Assembly: GCF_009914755.1 (NCBI RefSeq)
Contig: NC_060925.1
Length of the DNA: 64,000 bases
Direction: 5' to 3' (one strand)
Source of the DNA: the human T2T-CHM13v2.0 reference genome, Homo sapiens
Below the pieces are notes generated by a model. That model did no database searches. It was not told the origin of the DNA and was given only the letters and a program-made list of their open reading frames with translations. A program made the position numbers and the translations under genes. This document shows positions 32,922 to 64,000 of the stretch, in pieces. Every line of letters begins with the position of its first letter. Position 1 is the stretch's first letter.

Positions 32922-32999
32922 TATTTACTCTACCTACTCATTGTGTTGAATGCTTACTGCCAGTCCCTCCCTTCCCCATCCACCACTGCACTACAGTAG

Positions 33000-33646
<647 letters not shown>

Positions 33647-33721
33647 TAAGTCTGTTTTGTTCCCTGATGTAACCCAAGTTTCTAGAACAGTGCCTGGCAC
33701 AAAGCAAGCGCCTAATAGAGA

Positions 33722-33817
33722 ATGGCTGATGGAATAAATAGAACTTCTCACTAAAGTCCACCCATTTCCTTAAGTCTGGGGCTATGGGGGCGTCTTTAAC
33801 CATGAGTCTCCTTTCCT
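33722..33817 (+). repeat. Copy A of a 96-bp local duplication (partner 37642-37737)
   Basis: Ungapped alignment with 8 mismatches; the last 51 bp are identical. Confidence 0.97.
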
Positions 33818-36799
33818 GCCTAAACCTTCCCACTCAAGTCCAGCTGCTGCTGCTTCCCAGCCAGCTCTTGTTTGATTCCTCCCTGCTCCCTCAGAGACCT
33901 GACTGGAGCTCAGATCTGCCCCACCCCATCCAGCTGCAGAGCATGGACTCGTCCCCTTACCCCAACAGGTCCTGAAATCACCTATTAATCTTTTAAAATG
34001 TTGCTTTTATCCTACCACTCCCTTGCTCTAAAAAACCCACCACCCCTCTGTCAGCTGTTGGATCAAGTTCAGGTATAGCAGCCTGAGAGCCAAGCTCTCA
34101 GATCCAGGGCCTATCCTCCTCCACCACAGCTGTCTGCGGTCGAGAACGCCTCCCAGAATGCTCACCCTCATGTCTGAACCATACCCATCCTCCAAAGCCC
34201 AACTCAAACCCTCCCCTCGACCCTTCCTTGGAACTCCAGCCCACACCGATGGGTCCATTCTCTGACTTCTCCCCACAACAATTGAGGGCAGCTCCTGATT
34301 TAAAAGTTGGATTAATGCAGCAGGAGATTAAGGACAATAAACCTTTTATCATTTGGAAATCCCCAAGAGATTTTGATAGCAACTAGACTTGCTCCCCGCC
34401 ATATATATTACATTTAAAATTTTCTGTTAACCTCTTAAGTGTCCATATCCAGCATTTGCCACTTTATTTATTGCCTTACTATCTATTTCACATGTGCGTG
34501 CTCTGTTTGTCAAACAAGGGAATAAGTTCCTTGAGGGTAAAGGCTGGTTTATACAGTGATACGTTGATTAGAAATTCCTTGGGAACAAGGCTCATTTATT
34601 CAAAATCGACTATGCTCAAAAATAAAAACAAAACATCTTCATAAGTCATTCTAAGCAGAGCTGCCAGCTTACAGCTGCATGTCAGAAATATTTCAATGCA
34701 CAGTTTCTGTTTGTCTCTACCGATTCTGAAGTTAACGAGACCCGTCTTGGGGAGAATCTGCAGTCTGAGAAGTTTGCTCTTGGCATGCAGAGCCTCCTCA
34801 TTTCCAACTTGAGCTTCCGCAGCACCATTGTCAGGCCCCTGAAAGGCGCACATCTCCACCTCCCCACCTCCCCAACCTCCTGCAGAGTGGATAGACCTAG
34901 GAGACTGCCCTTTATCTTCATGGATGCATTGAAACTGACTCCCTCTGGACTGTGTGCACTGCACTCACTCTTAGAAGGTGTGAGATTTTTCTGAAGGCAG
35001 AGATGTTCTTCACCTTCTTCATCCGTGCACTCCAGTAATCTAGAATAGAGCTTGGCAAAACGTAAATACTCAATAAATATTTGTGGAATCGGTGATTGTT
35101 ATCTCAATGGGCATTTATACTTTCAACCTTTTATCTCCAGTTGTTTCATAAATTGTTGAGGACTTGTCAATTACCTACATGGGAGAAATGTTCTCCCTCC
35201 CCACACCTTCTTAAGCAAAAATGCCCCTGATGTTTCAATTAGGCTGGTCAATCTGACCTGTAGCTGGCCTAGCCTCCCTCAGGAGGAGGTGATTCATGGA
35301 GACTTTCCCATTGTCTTTCCAGCTCACTGCCTGGTTCTTGAAGAGGACAAGCTATGGTGGGATCCCTTTCTCATGGCCCATCGTCATCATGTCTACAGAC
35401 TCATCCAGCCCCTCTTTTGAGCCCCCTTCTCTCCAGGGCTCTCCTCTATCACTTACCTCTGCAAAGGTCAAGCATTCATCCTTAACAATGACCTAATTCT
35501 GCCCTCCCGTCCCCTCCCTAGGACTTCCAAATGCACCATTTTATGTTGCTCTATTTGGGATCTGATTTAAGGACTTTTCTTAGTAAAAACCTCTCTTTTC
35601 CGACATCCTGAAGAGTCCCATATCATTTCTCTTCCTGGTTCAGAAGTTTCTAACAAAGATAATCTGCCTGGTAAAGAAACCTGCTTGCTAACGGAGCTAT
35701 AATTTGGGGTGCTTTAAAAAAAACCTCCTAGTGAATTATATCCAGGACAAAAAATCTTCATGGAGCTAAATTTAATCATTAGCAGCTCAAGGACAGGAAC
35801 CCATAGTGTACATTTTCATTTTTTTTTCTCACTGTTTGTAGAAGTCCTAGGCCCAGCACAGACCTGTAATAAACACCTGTTGAATAATTGTTGAATAACT
35901 GATTGATTGACAGCCTGCTGAGTATGCCAGATGTTTCTGTCTGGCTACAATGTCTGGGTTTTTCTTTTCTTCTATAAAAATTGTTATGATTTTCAATGCA
36001 ATTATTCACCAGATTTTCCTCATGTGCCTTTATTTTTCTTTTTCTCCCAGCTTTTCATTTTGAAAAGTTTAAGTTATAGATACAAGTTGAAAGAACAGAA
36101 TAATAACCCCATTATGCTCTCTACCTGGATCCAACAATGAGTGTTTTCCCACATTTGTTTTTATCTCTTGCTATATCTATGCCTATATTTGTATAACTCT
36201 CTACAATATAAATACTTTCATTGCTAGGTCATTTGAAATTAAGTTGTAGACATCAAGAACTTTACCCATAAATACTCCAGCACACAGCTCCTAAGAATGA
36301 GGACATTTTTCTAAGTAACCACAATAGCAATATCACAGCTAAAAAATTAATAATAACTCCAAAATATAATCTAATACCCCTTCATTTATTCTTAAATTAG
36401 AAAAGCTTGCCTTTTGATCAGACAATGACTTTGCTTTCCAAAGTGGAATTGTGGTCCTAGTTCCCTACAGATCCATTAGGATTTATAGGTATAGTCAAGA
36501 TGTACAGTTCACATAAGATAGTTGCATTCTCTGGTTCTGGGATGACAAAGGGATGTTCAGGCCCCCAGAATGGGCTGTTTCTAGGGTAGACCAGGTCCAT
36601 CATCAAGTGGGACCAGGGAGATGTTGCTTTGGGACTCTGAGGGTTGCCATGAGCCCTACATACCTGTTAGAGTTTCTAACCCCACAGCTCCACAATGTAT
36701 GCTTGCTCTGTCTCTTTCTAAAATCCCTGTTTCTACTCTCCTTTGTCTACTTGCATTGGCAAATGGAAACACTATACACTAGTCAGCTCCACTCTTGGC

Positions 36800-36870
36800 A
36801 GTTCTGATTCAGTAGGTCTGGGATGGGAATCTCGAGAAATTTTATTTTTAAAAAGCTCTCCAAGATCTGC
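36800..36870 (+). mobile_element. MER5A fragment
   Basis: TTCTGATTCAGTAGGTCTGGGATGGG...TTTTTAAAAAGCTC. Confidence 0.7.
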
Positions 36871-37129
36871 AATCTGGCAGGGGGAGGGGGGAATGGAAAA
36901 TCCCTCATGAGTTACGTGGTCTGCCTACACAGCTCTGCACATCTTATGTATATGTGTTTGTGGGTTTCTGTAAAATGTCTCCAATTATCTTTGGAAGTGA
37001 GTGGAGTATAAACTATAAATAAACGAGAGACTTTCTCAGAACATCTATGTGCGGTGGGACCAGTCTTGGGGACTCTGCAGCTGAAGGTGGGGGACGGTGG
37101 AGAGAGACTGTGAACTTGAAGGGAGATGA

Positions 37130-37292
37130 CTGGCTGGGTCTGTGTTTGGTGCTGCCATTGGCTAATTACATGGATGGTTTTGGACAAGTTGCCTGACTTT
37201 TCTGAGCCTCAGTTTGTCATCCTCTAAGATGAGCAGAGTAATATGCACCTCATGAGACCTTGAGGTCGTGCATGTGAAAGTGCTTTGTAAAC
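37130..37292 (+). mobile_element. MIR
   Basis: TTGGACAAGTTGCCTGACTTTTCTGAGCCTCAGTTTGTCATC...GTGAAAGTGCTTTGTAAACT. Confidence 0.8.
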
Positions 37293-37641
37293 TACCTGCA
37301 GGAGTCTAAGTTGAGCCAGAGATAAGTTCACCCAAGAGCCCGGATCTGCCTGGGGGCAGGGGCAGGCACACAAGGAACTGGCTACCGGAGGAGCTGCGGG
37401 GCGTCTTGAGAAGAAGCTTACCCTAAAGGAAGGTAGCAACCACAGGCAGGAGGGGTAGGAAATGGGAAGGGGCATTGCTGGGGTTAGGTAAGTGTCGTCC
37501 GGGGCTAGGAGGATTCCGCTGGCTCCTTTCCCCAGGACGAAGGGAGGAAAGGGCTCTGATACAAGAGTGTACACGAACGAAAAGCACTGGCTGGAGATCA
37601 TCTATGTGGAATGTGGACAGGGCAAGGTGCCCGTAGCCCCT

Positions 37642-37653
37642 ATGGCTGACAGA
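37642..37653 (+). CDS. GALNT2: Coding end of the upstream alternative first exon of GALNT2 (MADR, no signal-anchor)
   Basis: ATGGCTGACAGA is followed by the consensus donor GTAAGT (GT at 37654). It is phase 0 like canonical exon 1, so it can join the same exon 2 in frame. This matches my recollection of an annotated GALNT2 isoform with a 12-nt coding first exon ~9 kb upstream. The exon's 5' boundary cannot be determined from sequence. Confidence 0.75.
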
Positions 37654-37737
37654 GTAAGTAGAACTTCTCACTAAAGTACACGTATGTCCTTAAGTCTGGG
37701 GCTATGGGGGCGTCTTTAACCATGAGTCTCCTTTCCT
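37642..37737 (+). repeat. Copy B of a 96-bp local duplication (partner 33722-33817)
   Basis: Offset 3920 bp from copy A, same orientation. Confidence 0.97.
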
Positions 37738-38089
37738 AGCACTCCTGACACTGGCCTCCTCCTTCCTAGGCCCAACTCTCAGGCTCACTCAGGGGCAGCC
37801 TGGGCTGGTGAAGCATCAGCAGAGGCCGTAGTGCTATGAGTGCTGGCTGGCGGCACGGCGACATATTCCCTGGGAGCCTGAGATGAGAGGGTTACACAGC
37901 GGGGAAGGTGGGAACAAGAAGACTGCCTTTCAGCAGAATGTCCCCAGGATCCCCTAAGCCCCCGTGATGCTGTGCTCGGTCGCTTTCCTGCCCCACCCTC
38001 TCCAGATAGCTGCTGTCCTGCCTAATGGGAAGATTCCTTTCCCCCACCGGCAAGTGTGCCAAGTGCCTCCTAGTGACTCAGTCTCCCTG

Positions 38090-38250
38090 ACTCTGCTACT
38101 CGCTGAGCTGCCTTGGGCAAGGCACTTAACAGCACCCTGCTATAAAACTGAAATAGTGAGAGCATTTACTTGATAGGACTGTTGCGAAGATTTAATAAAA
38201 TAATACACAAACAGTGCCTGGCATATGGTAAGCACATCATTAATGTTTAT
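38090..38250 (+). mobile_element. MIR
   Basis: CCTTGGGCAAGGCACTTAAC...ACAGTGCCTGGCATATGGTAAGCAC. Confidence 0.8.
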
Positions 38251-39817
38251 ATGTTCAGGGCAATCGATTCCTTTAACCTAAATCACATTTGATAAACTAT
38301 TTCTCAGTCACAATTCAAGCCAAGCAATTTCTGGGAAGACCGCAGCAGGTGGTTAACACTGTCCCCGGGGTGTGGGGATTTTGAGCTTAGTGTCACTAAG
38401 AGCTGCTCACTGAGGATAGAACTGTAGTACTTCAAAGTGTCCCCTCTCATTAAAGACAGCCCATTGTGGGTCCTGGGAGTATGACAGGGCCTGGGCAAGC
38501 TCTTCCATATCTTCTTTTTATAATAACCTCCATAGAAATGTGCTTTCAGTTTGGTGGGAGGGGCGTGCGAACGAGTTCCCATTATCCAATTTCAGTGTTT
38601 AATATTTTGTTCCTTTTAAGCAGTCATAATTTTGTTTCTCCTTTTCTCCTGATTGGGTATTGTCCCCCTTTAAAGTATTTTAGAAAAAAGGAAATTGGAC
38701 AATCAGATTATAAGAAAGGTTCTATTGTGCAAAGTCACAATGTATCATTAAATTGTACAGGGCTCCCGACAACTCTGACAACAGTAACTGGTACAGTGAA
38801 TTGGCAGCAGAAACGCTGAAGCTGTATTTATGTGCTGCTACAAATATGTAGCTATTCTTACTGTACTATACAGTCAGGAAAAAGCCCTAAGGGCTTCTGG
38901 CATGAAAATGTTACATTGATAAATGACAGCCACGGTGCTGAACAGTACTAGGGGCTGACAAAAGGCAAGTCAATGTATATAGAGTTTCCTACTCATTACC
39001 TTACCTGTAAACACTAGAAGTCATGCACAAGTGTTTGAAAGTGTCTGTGGAGATGTGTTAGGAAAGTAAATGAAGGTAGAAGAAAGACAAGGAGCGGGTG
39101 TTTATATGCCAGCCGTCTAGGGAAGCAAGTTGTAGTATCTTTTAGACGCTTGGGCTGTGGGGTTGTTGCAATGGAATGTTTTTAGGTTTCTGCCTTTTAT
39201 CTAATCAGCAGAATGAAACTTCAGGGTCACCATATTGCATGTAAAACCACTTTTAAAGAAAACGATTTCAAACTTACCAAAAAAGTTGCAAAAATAGTGC
39301 AGAGAATTCACCTATGTCCTTTACCCAGACTCGCCATTTTAAAATATTTTGCCACTTTTTTTTATCATTCTCTCTCTATATTTTTCTTGAATCTTTTGAA
39401 AGCAGCTCGTGTATGTCATGCCCCCTTAACCCTTGATACTTTAGTTTATATTTCCTAACAAATATCATATTTCCTAACATTCTTCTAAGCAACTATAGTA
39501 CAGTTAGCAGAATCAGAAAATTGGACATTATACTATTTACCATAGTGTACCATGGTATATCAGACTATGCTATAGTCCGTAGTCCTGTTTTATTCATTGT
39601 CCTACTCATGTTCTCCATAGTATTTTTACTTTCCACTACAGGGGCTTTATTGCATTTAGATATCATGTCTCTTCAGGTCCATTAATCTGGGACATTTCCT
39701 TACTCTTTCTTTGTCTTTCACAATAGCCAAAGTGACATTTCTGAAGAATACAAACCACTTACTTTACAGAATGTTCCCCATTTTTTTCCTGATATTTATT
39801 CACATCCTTGGCCAGAA

Positions 39818-39932
39818 TACATATTTTCATTTGAATATATTCTCCCTTGGACACCTTGTAATTATTCTTTGTTTCTGGGATAGTTTTTGTCATTATTTTC
39901 AATTTCCTTCTTGAATTTGCTCAACCCTTGTT
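39818..39932 (+). repeat. Inserted copy of a 115-bp local duplication (source 44819-44933)
   Basis: 2 mismatches in 115 bp; flanked by direct repeat ACATCCTTGGCCAGAATACA (39802-39821 / 39938-39957). Confidence 0.97.
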
Positions 39933-40767
39933 TATATACATCCTTGGCCAGAATACAAAAACCATGATGCTGTCACCTTCTCAGAGTCTCTCTGCAGACT
40001 CAGGATATCCATCTGACCCTCATAAGTGATGCTAGTTTTGGTCACCTGGCCAAGGTGCTGCCTATTTCTCCACCAGCTACTAAATCCCCCATCCCCTCAC
40101 CACCACCACCCCCACCCAGCAGTGAATAATATGTCTATTATCCAACTAAGAAATGTCTGTTGAAAGACACTTGAAGACCTTGTAAATCTCCTCCTTTTCA
40201 TCAAACTCTTCCTCCCCTAACCACTTCAGCATCCATTCAGGTGTCTTCTCCAAACAAACCTTTACTGCGATGGTTGTAAGATGGTGATCCACTCTTCCCT
40301 GAATGTCTATCAGTTGGCATTCTACTCAAAGAGTTCTCCTTTTGTCCATTTATTTATTATCATTGTGTATGCCTAGATTTCTACTTTATTCAGTGTTTAT
40401 TTTGATGCATATATGGTCTTAGATTTAGCCAGTGGGGCCCCTTCAAGCTGGCTCCTATGTCCTTTTAACATTGTGCTCTCTCTCTCCTCTGCTTCTCTCT
40501 TTCTCTCTCTCTCGCTCTTTCTGCCCTTCCTTACTTTCTAGTACAACAAGATGTTCCAGGCTCATTTAATACCCTCTCAACCCCAGTCCTGGAATCAATA
40601 ATTTCTCCAGTGAACTCTTACAGTGGAGAATGGTATTTAGAAACCAAGATCTGGGTGCAAGGGGTGCTCATTGCTACTGGGATATTATTAATCGGGGCCC
40701 TTTAAGTGGACAGATCTAGGAAATATGTATGTATATTTGTTTAAATATGCATACATATGAGCATAGA

Positions 40768-40794
40768 TGTGTGTGTGTGTGTGTGTGTGTGTGT
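40768..40794. repeat. (TG)n microsatellite
   Basis: Read directly from the sequence. Confidence 0.95.
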
Positions 40795-42599
40795 CTGTAT
40801 GAAATAATGAGTTCATACCGCTATCTCTAATTACAAATCTACTCCACAGGAATCTTTCTTGCCTTCTTCCATCCCATTCTGTATCTCCCTTCTTCCATAG
40901 TGAAAAGCCTAGCTCCCCAAAACAATGTATTTCCTGATTTGCTCAATTGCATACCATGCATAAAATAATACAATTGCTATACCCATAACACTATGAAAAA
41001 AATAAAGGGCTTTAAAATTCTTTCCAGTTCTAGGCTGAGAGCACATAGCTGGCATACTTTGTTTAAAGTTATGAATATTTTTTTAAGCTTTATATTATTC
41101 ATTTATAATATAATTGGATTCAGATATTTCTGTTTGGATTCAGTTTTTATTCCTCTCCCCTCAGCTTTCTTGATTTTATTTTGTTTTTTTAATATAGAGA
41201 ACACTATCATGTTTCCAAAATTTAAGCCTGGAAAAACAGTATACTCAGAGAAGCATCAATTCTTCTCCTATCCCTTCTACCTTTCCCTCCCACCCCTTCT
41301 AGGTAACCAACTCAATTGTTTTCTGGTTTACCACTATTGTGTATGTGAGTGTGTATGTGTGTTTTGCCAAAATATGCAGATACATGTGTCTTTTCTTTTC
41401 TGCATGGAGTGCTTTCCAGTGAAAACCAGCAAACCTTCTACACAAGTTCTAAAAGAGCTATAACACTTACATGTATGTTTTCTTCTAGTCCCTTCTTTGT
41501 TACAGATAAAGTAGCAGATGATACATACCCTATTGCAACTTCCTTTTTTCATTTAACAAAATATCCTGGATATTACGCTATATGTGTTCACGGACGTCTT
41601 CCTTATTTATTTATTTATTTTTGTAGTCTTGCCAACAGAATGTTTTGTCAAACTTTTGATTTTTTACCGGTTTGATGGGAGGATAAATAGTATGTTTGTA
41701 GTTTTAATTTACAACTCTATTAAGAGCAAAGTTTAATGTCTTTCCATATGTTTATGGACTCTTTGTAGATCTTTACTATGAATTGTCTGTTTATGCTTTT
41801 CGCCATTTTTTATAGGAGATTTGGGGTTTTTCCTTAATGTTAAGTACTTTATATGTCAGAGATATTACCTTTTTATCTATAATGTTGTGGAAATAATTTC
41901 TCCCAACTTGTCATTTGTAGTTTTTTCAAATTGTGATGAAATATACATCACATTAAATTTACCATCATAACCATTTTAAGTGTATAATTCTGTGCCATTA
42001 AGTACATTTACCATCCATCTCCAGAATGTTATCATCTCAAACCGAAACTCCGAACTCATAAATAATAATGGGAACTCCTAATTCCTCTCTTCCTCAAGCC
42101 CCTGGTGACTGCCATTTTACTTTTTGCCTCTATGATTTTGGTTACTGTAGGAAACTCATATAAGTGAAATCATTTGGTATTTGTCTTTTTGTGTCTCGCT
42201 CATTTCATCTAGCATATTGTCCTCAAGGTTCATCCATGTTCTGGTATGTGTTAGAATTTTCTTCTTTTTTAGGGCTGAATAATATTCCATTGCATGGATA
42301 TACCACATTCTGCTTGTCCATTTATCTGTTGATAGATATTTGTGTTGTCCCACCCTTTGGCCACTGTAAATAACACTGCTATGAATGTGGATATACAAAT
42401 ATCCGTTTGAGTCGCTGCTTTCAATTCCTTTATGTATACAACCAGAAATGGAATTGCTGGATCATATAGTAGTTCTAAATTTAATTTTTTGAGGAACCAC
42501 TATACCATTTTCAACAGCAGTGCGTAAGGGTTCCAATTTCTCTACATCCTCACCAACACTTGTTATTTATTTATTTATTTATTTTAAAAATGTTTTATA

Positions 42600-44818: not shown

Positions 44819-44933
44819 TACATATTTTCATTTGAATATATTTTCCCTTGGACACCTTGTAATTATTCTTTGTTTCTGGGATAGTTTTTGTCATTACTTT
44901 CAATTTCCTTCTTGAATTTGCTCAACCCTTGTT
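44819..44933 (+). repeat. Source copy of a 115-bp local duplication (partner 39818-39932)
   Basis: Offset 5001 bp, same orientation; no flanking duplication at this copy. Confidence 0.95.
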
Positions 44934-46299: not shown

Positions 46300-47960
<1,661 letters not shown>

Positions 47961-60460: not shown

Positions 60461-62307
60461 CTGTTGCTAATGTCAACTGTCACTTTGAAGGCGGGGAGGT
60501 GTTGACACGGGTTCTTGGGGAAGCTGCATCAGTGTGCTCTCACATCACATGTGACACGTCGCAGGCATTCACGAGCCCAGAGGCTCCTGTTCCCCAGCCA
60601 GAGCCAGCCTCCTCTGCCAGGTTTGAAGTGAACCAACCTACTTTCCTCGAAAGCGCCTCCAGCCTCCGCAGACCATGCCTGAAACTGTCATTCCTAGGTA
60701 GGTGGGTTGTTTTGGAAGGAGTGTGAGGATGAAGGGGCTCCTGCAGCCCTTTGCTTCTTCCTTGGGTGGGGAATCTGAGCCCCAGACAGCATGAGGAAGC
60801 TGGTCAGGGTCCCCCCCAGCTGGTGTGAGGACCGAGTGGCCCCTGGGGTTCTGCAGGTAGCTTCAGGCCAGAACCCTTTCCCCATCCAGTGTTCAGTGGC
60901 CAGGAGATTATTTCCCAATTCCACCCTTAATCTTTTCCAGCTTGTCTTTGAAAAATTATACCGAGATATGGTTTTAAGTGCGTGCTGTTTAATTTTTTAA
61001 TACTCTTATTGGCAATTGGATTTTTCAACATCTTGAGCTGTTACTATCTGAATATAGCGTGTTATTTGAAAACTTTTCTGCAAGGTTTTAATTAGGAAAT
61101 GTTCTTTCATTAGTTCAGTTTCTGGCTTGCTTTTGAAACTGCAGATGAGTGACAAGTGGAAGACAAATTAATAATTGTGGCAATGCAACAAAGCCCCCCT
61201 GTGAGGGCTGAGGACTAGTTCTGTCAATTAGAAAAGTGCTCACGTGGCTTTGCTGATGGCTCTAATTAAGACAACTCACAACTGGATTGCAGATCAATAG
61301 ATACACTCTGTGATGATTTTAAGGAGGAATGACCTGTGTGAAAACCCACGTTTGGTCATGCTAACCATGACGAGGAAGGATGGCACAGTGGTTGGGAGCC
61401 TGGCCTGTCATGTTAGACCTGGTTCAGATCCTGCTGTTACTACGGAGTAGCTGTGGGACATTGGCTTGCGTTTCCTTGTCTGGAAAAGAGAGTTAGTGAG
61501 TTGATGAAGATGATGCTGACGAGCTTAGTGAGGACGTTTATTTGTGCTTGCTCTCCCTTCCTGCAGGTACTTCTGGGGCTGGTCTGGCTTGACTTCTCTG
61601 ACCCAGGACGGGTCTTGCTTGGAGCAGACCTGCAGGTCAGTGGTGACATCAGGTGTGAATTTTTGGACTAGGAGTGTCAGTCGGGGTGCAGAGGCACCTG
61701 GTGAGGCAGGCTTTTCCATCCTTCTTCTCTAGTCCGTGTCCCTCCTTTGGGCAATGTGGAGTTGCCTTCAATCTGGGAAGGTCTCTGTTTCTTTGTGTAA
61801 GGTGAAGCTGTGGTGCTGAATGAAGCAGGTGTCACATTTGGGTTACATTTTTAAGGTTCTCTAATCGGTCAAAGTGCTGTGTAAGTTTCCAGGGGCACCG
61901 TAGAACAAAGCAGGCTTAATGGATTAATGGACATGATTGAGTGAGCTGATGGGTTGGTGATTTCATAGGTGTCTGGCTTTAAGCCCTGCCTTGCCTTTGC
62001 AGTTCCACAGCCATTCAGGCTGGTCATCTCTTCCTAGGGCCTCTGGAGTTGGCCTACCTTGGAGAGATCTCCAATGTGCCATTCCTCCTGCAGCCGACTC
62101 TCCTTATCCCTACTTCCTCAGTGCTGAGCCAGAGGAGAGTACCTTTTATCACTTCTGTATCATTTATTTATTTCGGGAAGGGAGTGTAGTGGCTGCCAGG
62201 AGAGGGAGGCACACATATAAATTGTGGACAAAGCCTAGAAACCTAGGCATTGCCCCTGCTCATAGGAAGTCATATGCATGGAACATACGCACTGGAGTGC
62301 TAGTTAG

Positions 62308-63110
62308 ACAGCTGGGATGATAGAGCAGGGGATCCAGGCTGATACATCAGGGGAACTTGCAGAGAGAATAGGGGATCCAGGATGATAGAGCAGGATAAGG
62401 ACAGCTGTGGATGGAGCAGGACGACTGGATAATGGAGCATGGAGCCAGGATGATGGAACAAGCAGCCAGGATGATGGACAGGGAGCTGGGATGATGGAGC
62501 CGGGAGCTGGGATGATGGAGCAGAGCAGCTGGGATGATGGAGCAGGGCAGCTGGGATGAAACAGCAGGGAGCTGGAATGATAGAGCACGGCAGTTGGGAT
62601 GATGGAGGAGGGAAGCTGGGATGATGGAGCAGGGAAGCCGGGATGATGGAGCAGGGAAGCCGGGATGATGGAGCAGGGAGCCAGGATGATGGAGCAGGGA
62701 GCCTAGATGATGGAGCTGGCAGCTGGGATGACAGAGTGGGGAGCAGGATGATGGAGCAGGGAGCCAGGATGATGGAGCGGGGGGGCCAGGATGATGGAGC
62801 GGGGAGCTGGGATGATGGAGCAGGCAGCCAGGATGATGGAGTGGGGAGCCCAGATGTTGGAGCAGGCAGCCAGGATGATGGAGTGGGGAGCGAGGATGAT
62901 GGAGCAGGGGAGCCGGGATGAGGGAGCAGGCAGCTGGGATGACGGAGCAGGGAGTGGGATGATGGAGCAGGGAGCGGGATGATGGAGCGGGGAGCCAAGA
63001 TGATGGAGCAGGGAGCTGGGATGTTGGAGCAGACAGTTGGGATGATGGAGCAGGGGGCTGGGATGATGGAGCTGGGGGGCCCAATGATGGAACAAGAAGC
63101 CAGACTGATA
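62308..63110. repeat. G-rich minisatellite/VNTR, unit ~20-22 bp, consensus GGATGATGGAGCAGGGAGC(CA/TG)
   Basis: Roughly 35-40 units; the core (~62430-63075) is homogeneous and the edges are degenerate. Confidence 0.95.
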
Positions 63111-64000
63111 GAACAGAGGAAATGATCTGAGAAACAACTTTGAAAGGTCACCTGCAGCCCCCTGATGCTTGCATTATGTTAAAATGTTTGAAAATTTAGA
63201 ATCCTCATTTTAAGGCATTGATCTTTCCTTCAGAAAGCTGTCCTTGCTGTTAAACGGTGTCCGGAGAGTAAGGAGATGGTCAGCACTGAGCATTTAGTTT
63301 CTTCAGAGGAATGACAGTGGGGGTTACTCTGTTTTTACTTGGAGTATCTGGATTGTTCAGGACCAAGTAAAACTCTGTAAGAAAGGGTTGGAAATCCTGG
63401 TGGGCCTCTGTTAGCCCTTCCAATAGAAGGGGGCCGGAGGGGGCCCACTGTCTGTGTCCTTGGACCTGCATGCAAGCTGAAGGAAATGGTGCCTGCTGCA
63501 CATGGAGGAGCTGGAGCCGTGGACAGGCCTGAGCTCATCTCCATCAGCACCCGGATGTTGGCGTACATGCCTGTGAAGGTGAGGGTCTGCACTTCCAGCA
63601 GCCCTCCCCCTTTGTATGTCACTTTGGACACCCGAGATTTCCCTGATTTGCCTGGAGCCTCTGTGTAATTTTTAATTTGATCCCCTGCGTCCCAGTGGAC
63701 TGTGAGTGTCTTGAGGCCAGCACAGGCTTGGCCCCTCCCACAGCAGGGAGACAGTGGGGAGCCAGGCTAACATGGGCCCAGGGATGTATATTCTGGAAGG
63801 AGGGCAGGCTGGGGGACGGTCACGCCAATATCAGAGTGTGAAGTGGGGCTCCATGAGAGGTGAGTCCTCATCAGGAAGGGCCGAGGAGGGGACCTGTGGG
63901 CGAGGCCTGTTGACCAGAATGATCCAGTGTGGCAGAAGGCTGTCTGGGCTTGGAGAAGATCCTGTGCAGAGATCCTGGGGCCAGAATGAACTTGGCATGT

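What the first reader, a model, noticed from the sequence alone, without database searches (positions are those of the whole stretch)
33722..37737. The alternative GALNT2 first exon gets its ATG and splice donor from a 96-bp local copy of an L2-tail junction
Seen: 37642-37737 is an ungapped copy of 33722-33817 (8 mismatches in 96 bp), and the homology starts exactly at the ATG of the MADR exon. Copy A reads ATGGCTGATGGA-ATAAAT (no donor). Copy B reads ATGGCTGACAGA-GTAAGT, so two A/G differences make a consensus 5' splice site, in the same phase as canonical exon 1. Copy A is continuous with an upstream L2 3' end (GTGCCTGGCAC...GAATAAAT tail), so it is the likely source. Inference: a short templated insertion plus point mutations created a new first exon for GALNT2. 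This is exon birth from a repair-type duplication rather than classic in-situ TE exonization. I do not know of this origin having been described.
Basis: partly seen in the sequence, partly recalled or inferred. Interest (0 to 1): 0.85.

Follow-up and report, generated by a model that had tools for sequence, protein, structure and literature searches.

The report
Small local copy ends GALNT2's alternative first exon
The start codon and splice site of a minor, upstream first exon of GALNT2 lie in a 96-base copy of a sequence 3.9 kb away that spans the end of an old repeat, a neat but modest case of exon birth whose product probably does little.

Summary
33722-33817 and 37642-37737 match without gaps at 88 of 96 bases. 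They are the only two places in the human reference that match at E<=10. Copy A spans the end of a dispersed L2-like 3' end and its unique flank. Copy B begins inside that tail and has no element upstream. B is therefore a truncated DNA-level copy of A's junction, not an independent repeat insertion. B supplies the last 12 bases (ATG GCT GAC AGA) and the GTAAGT donor of exon 1 of the curated transcript NM_001291866.2. The two G's that make the donor are derived in B.

- The other 278 bases of the exon and its start site are single-copy DNA.
- A better consensus donor sits inside the exon at 37488.
- Three upstream ATGs precede a weak-context start.
- The isoform lacks the signal anchor.
- HeLa ribosome footprints unique to the first exons were 181 versus 0.
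- "Repair-type templated insertion" fits the lack of flanking duplication and poly(A), but no empty site could be examined.
- The age is unresolved.

This is a new member of a known kind, of modest interest.

The parts
33655..33739 (+). Fragment of a dispersed L2-like 3' end (the family name is recalled, not given by any tool). Its tail runs into copy A.
   Evidence: 7 other genome places match 33655-33717 at 83-93%; the 21-mer at 33681-33701 occurs at 37 places, against 0 for the reversed control; tails of other copies compared as they stand.
33722..33817 (+). Copy A, the likely source. It holds the last 18 nt of the element's tail plus 78 nt of unique flank. It has ATAAAT where B has the donor.
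37642..37737 (+). Copy B. It is 88/96 identical to A, begins at the annotated ATG, and has no element upstream and no flanking direct repeat.
37364..37653 (+). Alternative first exon of GALNT2 (NM_001291866.2), 290 nt. Only its last 12 nt come from copy B.
   Evidence: RefSeq table; 37200-37641 is single-copy in the genome.
37642..37653 (+). Annotated coding part, Met-Ala-Asp-Arg, phase 0.
   Evidence: the exon 2 frame is open.
37654..37659 (+). 5' splice site GTAAGT. G at +1 (37654) and G at +5 (37658) are A in copy A (33734, 33738).
33739..33760 (+). First copy of a 22-nt imperfect direct repeat inside locus A. Its partner is at 33821-33842 (18/22).
33821..33842 (+). Second copy of that direct repeat. 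It starts 3 nt after the end of the 96-nt unit.
37488..37493 (+). Donor-like GTAAGT preceded by TAG, inside the annotated exon and not used by the RefSeq transcript.
46807..46975 (+). Canonical exon 1 (NM_004481.5). It encodes the 42-residue N-terminus with the hydrophobic signal anchor and lies in a CpG-rich promoter.

Best explanation
Copy B (37642-37737) is a short, same-orientation, non-tandem DNA-level copy of the junction at locus A, 3.9 kb upstream. At that junction an old L2-like 3' end meets its unique flank.

The copy brought an ATG that had already arisen by decay of the element's tail, plus the string ATAAAT. In the B lineage two A-to-G changes turned ATAAAT into GTAAGT.

Transcripts that start about 280 nt upstream in single-copy, CpG-poor DNA can use this donor to splice to GALNT2 exon 2. 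This gives the curated variant NM_001291866.2.

Shown here: the copy, its uniqueness in the genome, its polarity, the donor-creating differences and the annotation.

Inferred: B arose as a patch put in during break repair or template switching. The variant is a minor by-product, and its predicted protein (MADR plus exon 2 onward, without signal anchor) is unlikely to act as a Golgi enzyme.
For: - The match is 88/96 without gaps, with sharp ends.
- Only two genome places match.
- A's upstream flank belongs to a dispersed family. Its mean local score against 29 copies is 26.7, against 8.0 for shuffles, with 0 of 200 shuffles as good. There are 37 exact places for the 21-mer.
- A's 18-mer extends that element in register: the summed anchored score is 68, shuffles average -13.4, 7 of 1000 reach 68, and B's 18-mer scores 15. 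A's 18-mer scores better than B's in 17 of 29 copies, ties in 6 and is worse in 6.
- The 78-nt remainder is not found after the other copies.
- B's upstream and downstream flanks resemble neither the family nor anything else in the genome.
- B has no flanking direct repeat: the longest shared word is 4 nt, with 1870 of 2000 shuffles as good. No poly(A) follows it.
- At unit position 37, A's internal repeat partner agrees with A, so B's base is derived.
- The RefSeq exon ends at 37653 and joins exon 2 in phase 0.
- Evidence for minor status: three upstream ATGs, the context GCCCCTATGG, loss of [17 protein letters not shown] (17-residue Kyte-Doolittle mean 2.09), CpG observed/expected 0.36 against 0.97 at the canonical promoter, and HeLa footprints of 181 versus 0 (PMC8323483, Table 1).
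Against: - No other species and no empty site could be examined. Insertion, direction and age therefore rest on human sequence alone.
- The polarity tests are moderate rather than overwhelming (13 of 500 and 7 of 1000). They used 29 of the 36 other exact-21-mer places.
- One negative control (39000-39079, + strand) also scored high against the family, with 1 of 200 shuffles as good.
- All 8 mismatches fall in the first 45 nt (P=0.0016 post hoc; P=0.014 for a clean run of at least 51). A single neutral copy event does not predict this.
- A 22-nt direct repeat in A ends 3 nt from the unit's end. A 6-mer, GCCTAA, lies on both sides of A's unit, with 111 of 2000 shuffles as good. Both hint at extra events.
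- There is a weak right-flank similarity, 33830-33868 to 37739-37779, with 44 of 1000 shuffles as good.
- The ribo-seq zero comes from one cell line, and only 12 nt of this exon are coding.
Confidence: 0.65

Rival explanations
1. Two-step exchange between the loci. First, about 57-60 nt (33761-33817/33820) entered locus A from the B progenitor, creating the 22-nt direct repeat 33739-33760 / 33821-33842 as a target-site duplication. Later, a break at B was repaired from A using that homology, copying leftward through 39 nt (repeat copy plus 17-18 nt of element tail). The ATG and the donor progenitor still come from A's tail, but most of B's intronic part would be native to B.
For: The direct repeat is 18/22, and 3 of 1000 dinucleotide shuffles reach that. 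The right end of the A-B homology (33817) lies 3 nt from the start of the second repeat copy. A nearby insertion at 39.8 kb shows that patches with long flanking repeats (27 nt, 25/27) occur in this neighbourhood.
Against: 17 of 235 real 261-nt pieces of the window have an equally good 22-nt repeat. It needs two events where one suffices. The repeat pair differs at 4 of 22 positions, while A and B differ at 3 of 57 over the supposed first insert; this is not the equality expected if both date from one event, though the numbers are small.
Confidence: 0.12
2. A and B are remnants of an older, larger duplication. Its 96-nt core was later homogenised by gene conversion, the last 51 nt most recently.
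For: The mismatches are clustered and the last 51 nt are identical. There is a weak similarity of the right flanks, with 44 of 1000 shuffles as good.
Against: There is no left-flank similarity: 637 of 1000 shuffles are as good locally, and the anchored score is 0. B's upstream flank is not similar to the element family. No other match was found between the 5-kb surroundings.
Confidence: 0.08
3. B is ancestral and A is the derived copy, inserted next to a truncated element.
For: The 6-mer GCCTAA occurs both left (33710-33715) and right (33818-33823) of A's unit, with 111 of 2000 shuffles as good.
Against: A's first 18 nt continue the element in register (7 of 1000 shuffles), and B's 18-mer fits worse. 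The 6-mer is not adjacent to the left junction. At unit position 37 the outgroup-like repeat copy supports A's base.
Confidence: 0.05
4. Both copies are independent insertions of one dispersed repeat.
For: The first 18 nt are repeat-derived.
Against: The 96-mers have only two places in the genome at E<=10. The 78-nt part is absent downstream of 29 other copies. B has no element upstream.
Confidence: 0.01

Closest known systems
Exonization of transposed elements (as in Sela et al. 2010, PMC2879366; abstract read)
   Same: The start codon and the 5' splice site lie in sequence derived from a transposed element. The splice site arose by point changes. The event sits at the 5' end of the coding sequence, where that paper's abstract says such events are enriched.
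   Different: The element-derived 18 nt are not at the element's insertion site. They arrived inside a 96-nt secondary copy of an element/flank junction. This is a first exon, not a cassette exon. 278 of the 290 exon bases are not repeat-derived by the tests run here.
[quoted passage not shown]
   Same: A short patch templated from elsewhere in the genome, with no target-site duplication and no poly(A) tract.
   Different: The template is only 3.9 kb away on the same strand. Those authors describe distant, RNA-derived templates and polymorphic events. Junction microhomology, an RNA intermediate and polymorphism could not be tested.
Insertions of 10-1000 bp from ectopic donors during error-prone break repair (review PMC7407515; passages read)
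   Same: The size class and the non-tandem local donor are the same.
   Different: The review's example is the rice genome. The polymerase-theta insertions it describes are small. Nothing here identifies the pathway.
De novo exon birth by splice-site-creating substitutions in non-coding DNA (general knowledge, recalled; no paper read for it)
   Same: Two substitutions create a consensus donor downstream of a weak promoter.
   Different: The substrate is a recent paralogous copy, so the pre-mutation state is preserved in the same genome at locus A.

Membership tests
Dispersed L2-like 3' end (locus A) | Many dispersed copies sharing the same 3' region | tested here: met
   7 other places match; 37 exact places for the 21-mer against 0 for the control; 0 of 200 shuffles as good. 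The name L2 is recalled; no repeat library was available.
Dispersed L2-like 3' end (locus B) | Element sequence continuing upstream of the 18-nt tail piece | tested here: not met
   37562-37641 against 29 copies, 43 of 200 shuffles as good; no similarity to A's left flank.
In-situ transposed-element exonization | Exon or splice site lies within the element at its own insertion site | tested here: not met
   B holds only 18 element-derived nt, carried in a copy together with 78 nt of A's unique flank.
Class 2 templated sequence insertion | No target-site duplication at the insert | tested here: met
   longest shared word 4 nt, 1870 of 2000 shuffles as good; no direct repeat in 37560-37820.
Class 2 templated sequence insertion | No poly(A) tract at the 3' end of the insert | tested here: met
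   the sequence after 37737 has no A run.
Class 2 templated sequence insertion | End-joining marks at the junctions (microhomology, microdeletion, filler) relative to the empty site | not testable with these tools
   No genome with an empty site was available. The present-day flanks of A and B share nothing at the junctions.
Class 2 templated sequence insertion | Template from a distant region, via RNA | tested here: inconclusive
   The template is 3.9 kb away on the same strand. The unit's ends in A are not splice-site-like on inspection. An RNA intermediate cannot be tested.
Tandem exon duplication | Adjacent copies of an existing exon | tested here: not met
   The spacing is 3920 nt. Locus A overlaps no annotated exon or gene (and the annotation given with the finding).
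Functional 5' splice site | GT with consensus neighbours, used by a transcript | tested here: met
   AGA followed by GTAAGT. It ends exon 1 of the curated NM_001291866.2. Spliced reads themselves could not be seen. GTRAGT hexamers occur at the chance rate in the window, 55 against 52 expected.
Type II Golgi GalNAc-transferase (protein product) | N-terminal hydrophobic signal anchor | tested here: not met
   The anchor [17 protein letters not shown] is encoded only by canonical exon 1. The alternative isoform begins MADR and continues with EDWNEIDPIKKK from exon 2.

The most novel reading that the evidence does not exclude
A break-repair patch copied from an element/flank junction a few kb away seeded a primate-lineage first-exon donor and start codon. 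The cluster of changes at its 5' end (4 in 18 nt against 4 in 78 nt, Fisher P=0.038) would reflect either error-prone synthesis at the start of the patch or selection for the new splice site. The result would be a regulated GALNT2 isoform without signal anchor, either with a cytosolic role or acting as a switch that lowers enzyme output when the upstream promoter fires.
Probability: 0.07. Interest if true: 0.55.

Novelty: new member of a known kind. Interest (0 to 1): 0.3.

Why it matters
The case is unusually legible. The pre-mutation state of a new splice donor is preserved as a paralogous copy in the same genome, so the two substitutions that made the donor can be read directly and tested in a minigene.

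It also shows that element-derived splice signals can reach a gene second-hand, through short non-tandem copies that repeat annotation would not flag. Only 18 nt of B are element-derived.

It bears little on GALNT2 biology unless the upstream promoter proves to be used in some tissue. The isoform lacks the membrane anchor needed for a Golgi glycosyltransferase.

Tried and rejected
Known RNA in the unit: Rfam at E<=1 over 33000-42000 found nothing at either copy. The only overlap was a 17-bit HOTTIP_3 match at 33783-33871, against a gathering score of 50. Folding of both strands of both copies gave z-scores from -0.63 to +1.82. Rejected.

Larger duplication: blastn with word size 7 on the 5-kb surroundings and anchored or local flank alignments gave only a marginal right-flank hit (44 of 1000).

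Retrotransposition-like insertion of B: no flanking repeat and no poly(A). Rejected.

RNA-mediated copy of an exon at A: the unit's ends in A are preceded by GA and followed by GC, so they are not splice-site-like. Not pursued.

Cross-species dating: no tool here holds primate genomes. The protein word search could not be used for the isoform, because that needs a spliced (joined) sequence, which may not be typed. Left out.

Literature:
- GALNT2 + 'alternative first exon': 0 papers.
- NM_001291866: 1 paper (section 9 with Table 1 read).
- GALNT2 + 'alternative promoter': 10 papers, listing only. One was checked by passages (PMC6560887) and was irrelevant.
- GALNT2 + 'isoform 2' + transmembrane: 4 papers, listing only, none on this isoform by title or abstract.
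- 'templated insertion' + exonization: 5 papers, listing only, none on exon origin.
- Searches gave the background papers cited.
- I found no description of this origin in those searches. Supplementary tables, such as lists of primate-specific exons or alternative promoters, are closed and might hold it.

Age: the Jukes-Cantor distance is 0.088. With a recalled rate of about 1e-9 per site per year per lineage this is roughly 40 My. The identical last 51 nt bound that part to under 5.7% divergence. I give no firm date.
Full report
**1. The observation**

MAFFT, the repeat finder and blastn all give one ungapped match of 96 nt with 88 identities, 3920 nt apart on the same strand. The mismatches sit at unit positions 9, 10, 13, 17, 37, 41, 42 and 45.

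The ends are sharp. Alignments forced to start at either junction score 0, and the left flanks show no local similarity (637 of 1000 shuffles as good). A search of the whole reference with either 96-mer returns only these two places at E<=10, with the cross-match at E=8.6e-31. The tool warns that its counts are lower bounds and that closed regions are not shown. The match is real, far beyond chance, and not a dispersed repeat.

**2. What locus A is**

The sequence just left of copy A (33655-33717) matches 7 other places in the genome at 83-93%. Its 21-mer at 33681-33701 occurs exactly at 37 places, against 0 for the reversed control. I recall this motif as the 3' end of LINE-2.

I compared 29 of the 36 other exact places as they stand; the tool returned loci for only 30 places, one of them the window's own.
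- 15 of 29 carry a GAAT[GA]A-type tail within 70 nt.
- A's first 18 nt resemble those tails, with 13 of 500 shuffles as good. B's 18 nt do not (184 of 500).
- A's 18-mer scores better in 17 copies, equal in 6 and worse in 6.
- In alignments anchored at the 21-mer, adding A's 18-mer lifts the summed score from -1 to 68. Shuffled 18-mers average -13.4, 7 of 1000 reach 68, and B's 18-mer gives 15.
- The remaining 78 nt of the unit are not found within 300 nt after the other copies (best score 14; shuffles reach up to 20).

The unit therefore spans the element's end and A's unique flank.

**3. What locus B is**

B's upstream flank resembles neither the element family (43 of 200 shuffles as good) nor A's left flank. 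A's upstream flank (0 of 200) and another tail at 38190-38269 (0 of 200) clearly resemble the family. One negative control (39000-39079, + strand) also scored high (1 of 200), so this test is not perfectly specific.

B's flanks 37200-37641 and 37738-38200 are single-copy in the genome. B has no flanking direct repeat: the longest shared word is 4 nt, with 1870 of 2000 shuffles as good, and one search found none. No A run follows it.

B is thus a truncated, DNA-level copy of A's junction. At the two donor positions A carries the base seen in most tails. At position 37, A's own internal repeat partner agrees with A. At least three of B's eight differences are therefore derived in B.

**4. What the copy contributes**

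RefSeq's curated NM_001291866.2 has exon 1 at 37364-37653, coding from 37642, joined to the same exon 2 as the main transcript NM_004481.5.

The 12 coding bases and the donor lie in copy B. B reads AGA followed by GTAAGT, where A reads GGA followed by ATAAAT. G at +1 (37654) and G at +5 (37658) are the two differences that create the site. Both first exons end in phase 0, and exon 2 reads EDWNEIDPIKKK... in that frame.

**5. What it does not contribute, and how much the exon matters**
- The other 278 nt of the exon and its start site are single-copy DNA, with CpG observed/expected 0.36. The canonical promoter has 0.97 and 80% G+C.
- Inside the exon at 37488 there is TAG followed by GTAAGT, a closer match to the donor consensus than the annotated site. 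GTRAGT hexamers occur at the chance rate in the window, 55 against 52 expected. A consensus match alone does not show use.
- The leader has three upstream ATGs (37462, 37604, 37611) opening frames of 9, 10 and 12 codons. The last ends at 37647-37649, across the annotated ATG. That ATG has C at -3.
- The predicted protein replaces the 42 residues of canonical exon 1, which hold the hydrophobic anchor [17 protein letters not shown] (mean hydropathy 2.09), with MADR. By established knowledge of this enzyme family (type II Golgi proteins), it could not enter the secretory pathway.
- In a HeLa ribosome-profiling set, reads unique to the two first exons were 181 for NM_004481 and 0 for NM_001291866 (PMC8323483, Table 1). 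This is one cell line and a mostly non-coding exon.

I read the variant as a minor by-product transcript and the ATG as nominal.

**6. How B arose**

A 96-nt patch from 3.9 kb away, without target-site duplication or poly(A), fits what Onozawa and Aplan call class 2 templated insertions (PMC5110952; abstract and the section on classes read). It also fits insertions of 10-1000 bp from ectopic donors in error-prone break repair (PMC7407515; passages). This is inference. The defining junction marks need the empty site, which I could not see.

The mismatches are not spread evenly. All 8 lie in the first 45 nt (P=0.0016, post hoc). A clean run of at least 51 nt has P=0.014. The first 18 nt hold 4 mismatches and the other 78 nt hold 4 (Fisher P=0.038). 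Error-prone synthesis at the start of the patch, later conversion of the 3' half, selection on the new exon end, or chance could each produce this.

The overall distance of 0.088 would mean roughly 40 My at a recalled rate of about 1e-9 per site per year. The identical 51 nt allow a much younger event.

**7. Complications**

Locus A holds a 22-nt imperfect direct repeat, 33739-33760 and 33821-33842 (18/22). The first copy starts at the element's end. The second starts 3 nt after the unit's end. Only 3 of 1000 dinucleotide shuffles do as well, but 17 of 235 real pieces of the window do. If it is a target-site duplication around a 60-nt insert, the history may have had two steps, with most of B's intronic part native to B.

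The 6-mer GCCTAA on both sides of A's unit (111 of 2000) and a weak right-flank similarity (44 of 1000) are also unexplained.

In every version that I could frame, the ATG and the donor progenitor come from A's element tail.

**8. A second local copy**

The stretches 39818-39932 and 44819-44933 match at 113 of 115 positions. Other genome hits to this sequence reach only 75-82%. The 39.8-kb copy is bracketed by a 27-nt direct repeat, 39795-39821 and 39931-39957 (25/27). It is therefore an insertion with a long target duplication and no poly(A). Short non-tandem local copies are thus not unique to the A/B pair in this 10-kb neighbourhood.

**9. Novelty**

My searches found no description of this exon's origin. 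Supplements were closed.

The components are all known: element-derived splice signals (PMC2879366, abstract), donor creation by point changes, and templated patches. The combination, a second-hand element tail delivered in a junction copy with the pre-mutation state preserved nearby, is a tidy example rather than a new kind.

Without cross-species data and expression data the case stays modest: interest 0.3.

Noticed in passing
window 39795-39957 and 44819-44933: A second short local copy pair matches at 113/115 (39818-39932 to 44819-44933). The 39.8-kb copy is flanked by a 27-nt direct repeat (25/27), so it is an insertion with a long target duplication and no poly(A). Other genome hits to it are only 75-82% identical.
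   Followed up: partly
window 37488-37493: TAG followed by GTAAGT lies inside the annotated alternative first exon, 165 nt before the annotated donor. It is a closer consensus match than the annotated site and is unused by the RefSeq transcript.
   Followed up: partly
window 33739-33760 and 33821-33842: A 22-nt imperfect direct repeat (18/22) brackets 60 nt inside and just beyond copy A. It may be a target-site duplication of an earlier insert.
   Followed up: partly
window 38190-38269: Another tail of the same L2-like family lies on the + strand, about 470 nt downstream of copy B, inside the annotated H3K4me1 hESC enhancer 37851-38351.
   Followed up: partly
window 41407-41468 (-): A U7 snRNA-like sequence scores 45.5 bits in Rfam (gathering score 34) over the full model length. 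It matches the annotated LOC124904748. Whether it is a working gene or a pseudogene was not examined.
   Followed up: no
window 62307-63136: A minisatellite with a 21-22-nt period (units such as GGGATGATGGAGCAGGG) lies in GALNT2 intron 1, with at least 16 registers reported.
   Followed up: no
window 32963-33649: Two Alu elements in tandem on the - strand (four sub-threshold SRP-RNA matches in Rfam) abut the 5' side of locus A's L2-like fragment.
   Followed up: no
window 40679-40876 (+): A sub-threshold Rfam match to SCARNA7 scores 28.3 bits against a gathering score of 65, E=0.0012. It is probably not a gene.
   Followed up: no
window 39000-39079 (+): A stretch chosen as a negative control scored unexpectedly high against the 29 L2-like copies (1 of 200 shuffles as good). 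It may be another decayed fragment or an A+T-rich artefact.
   Followed up: no
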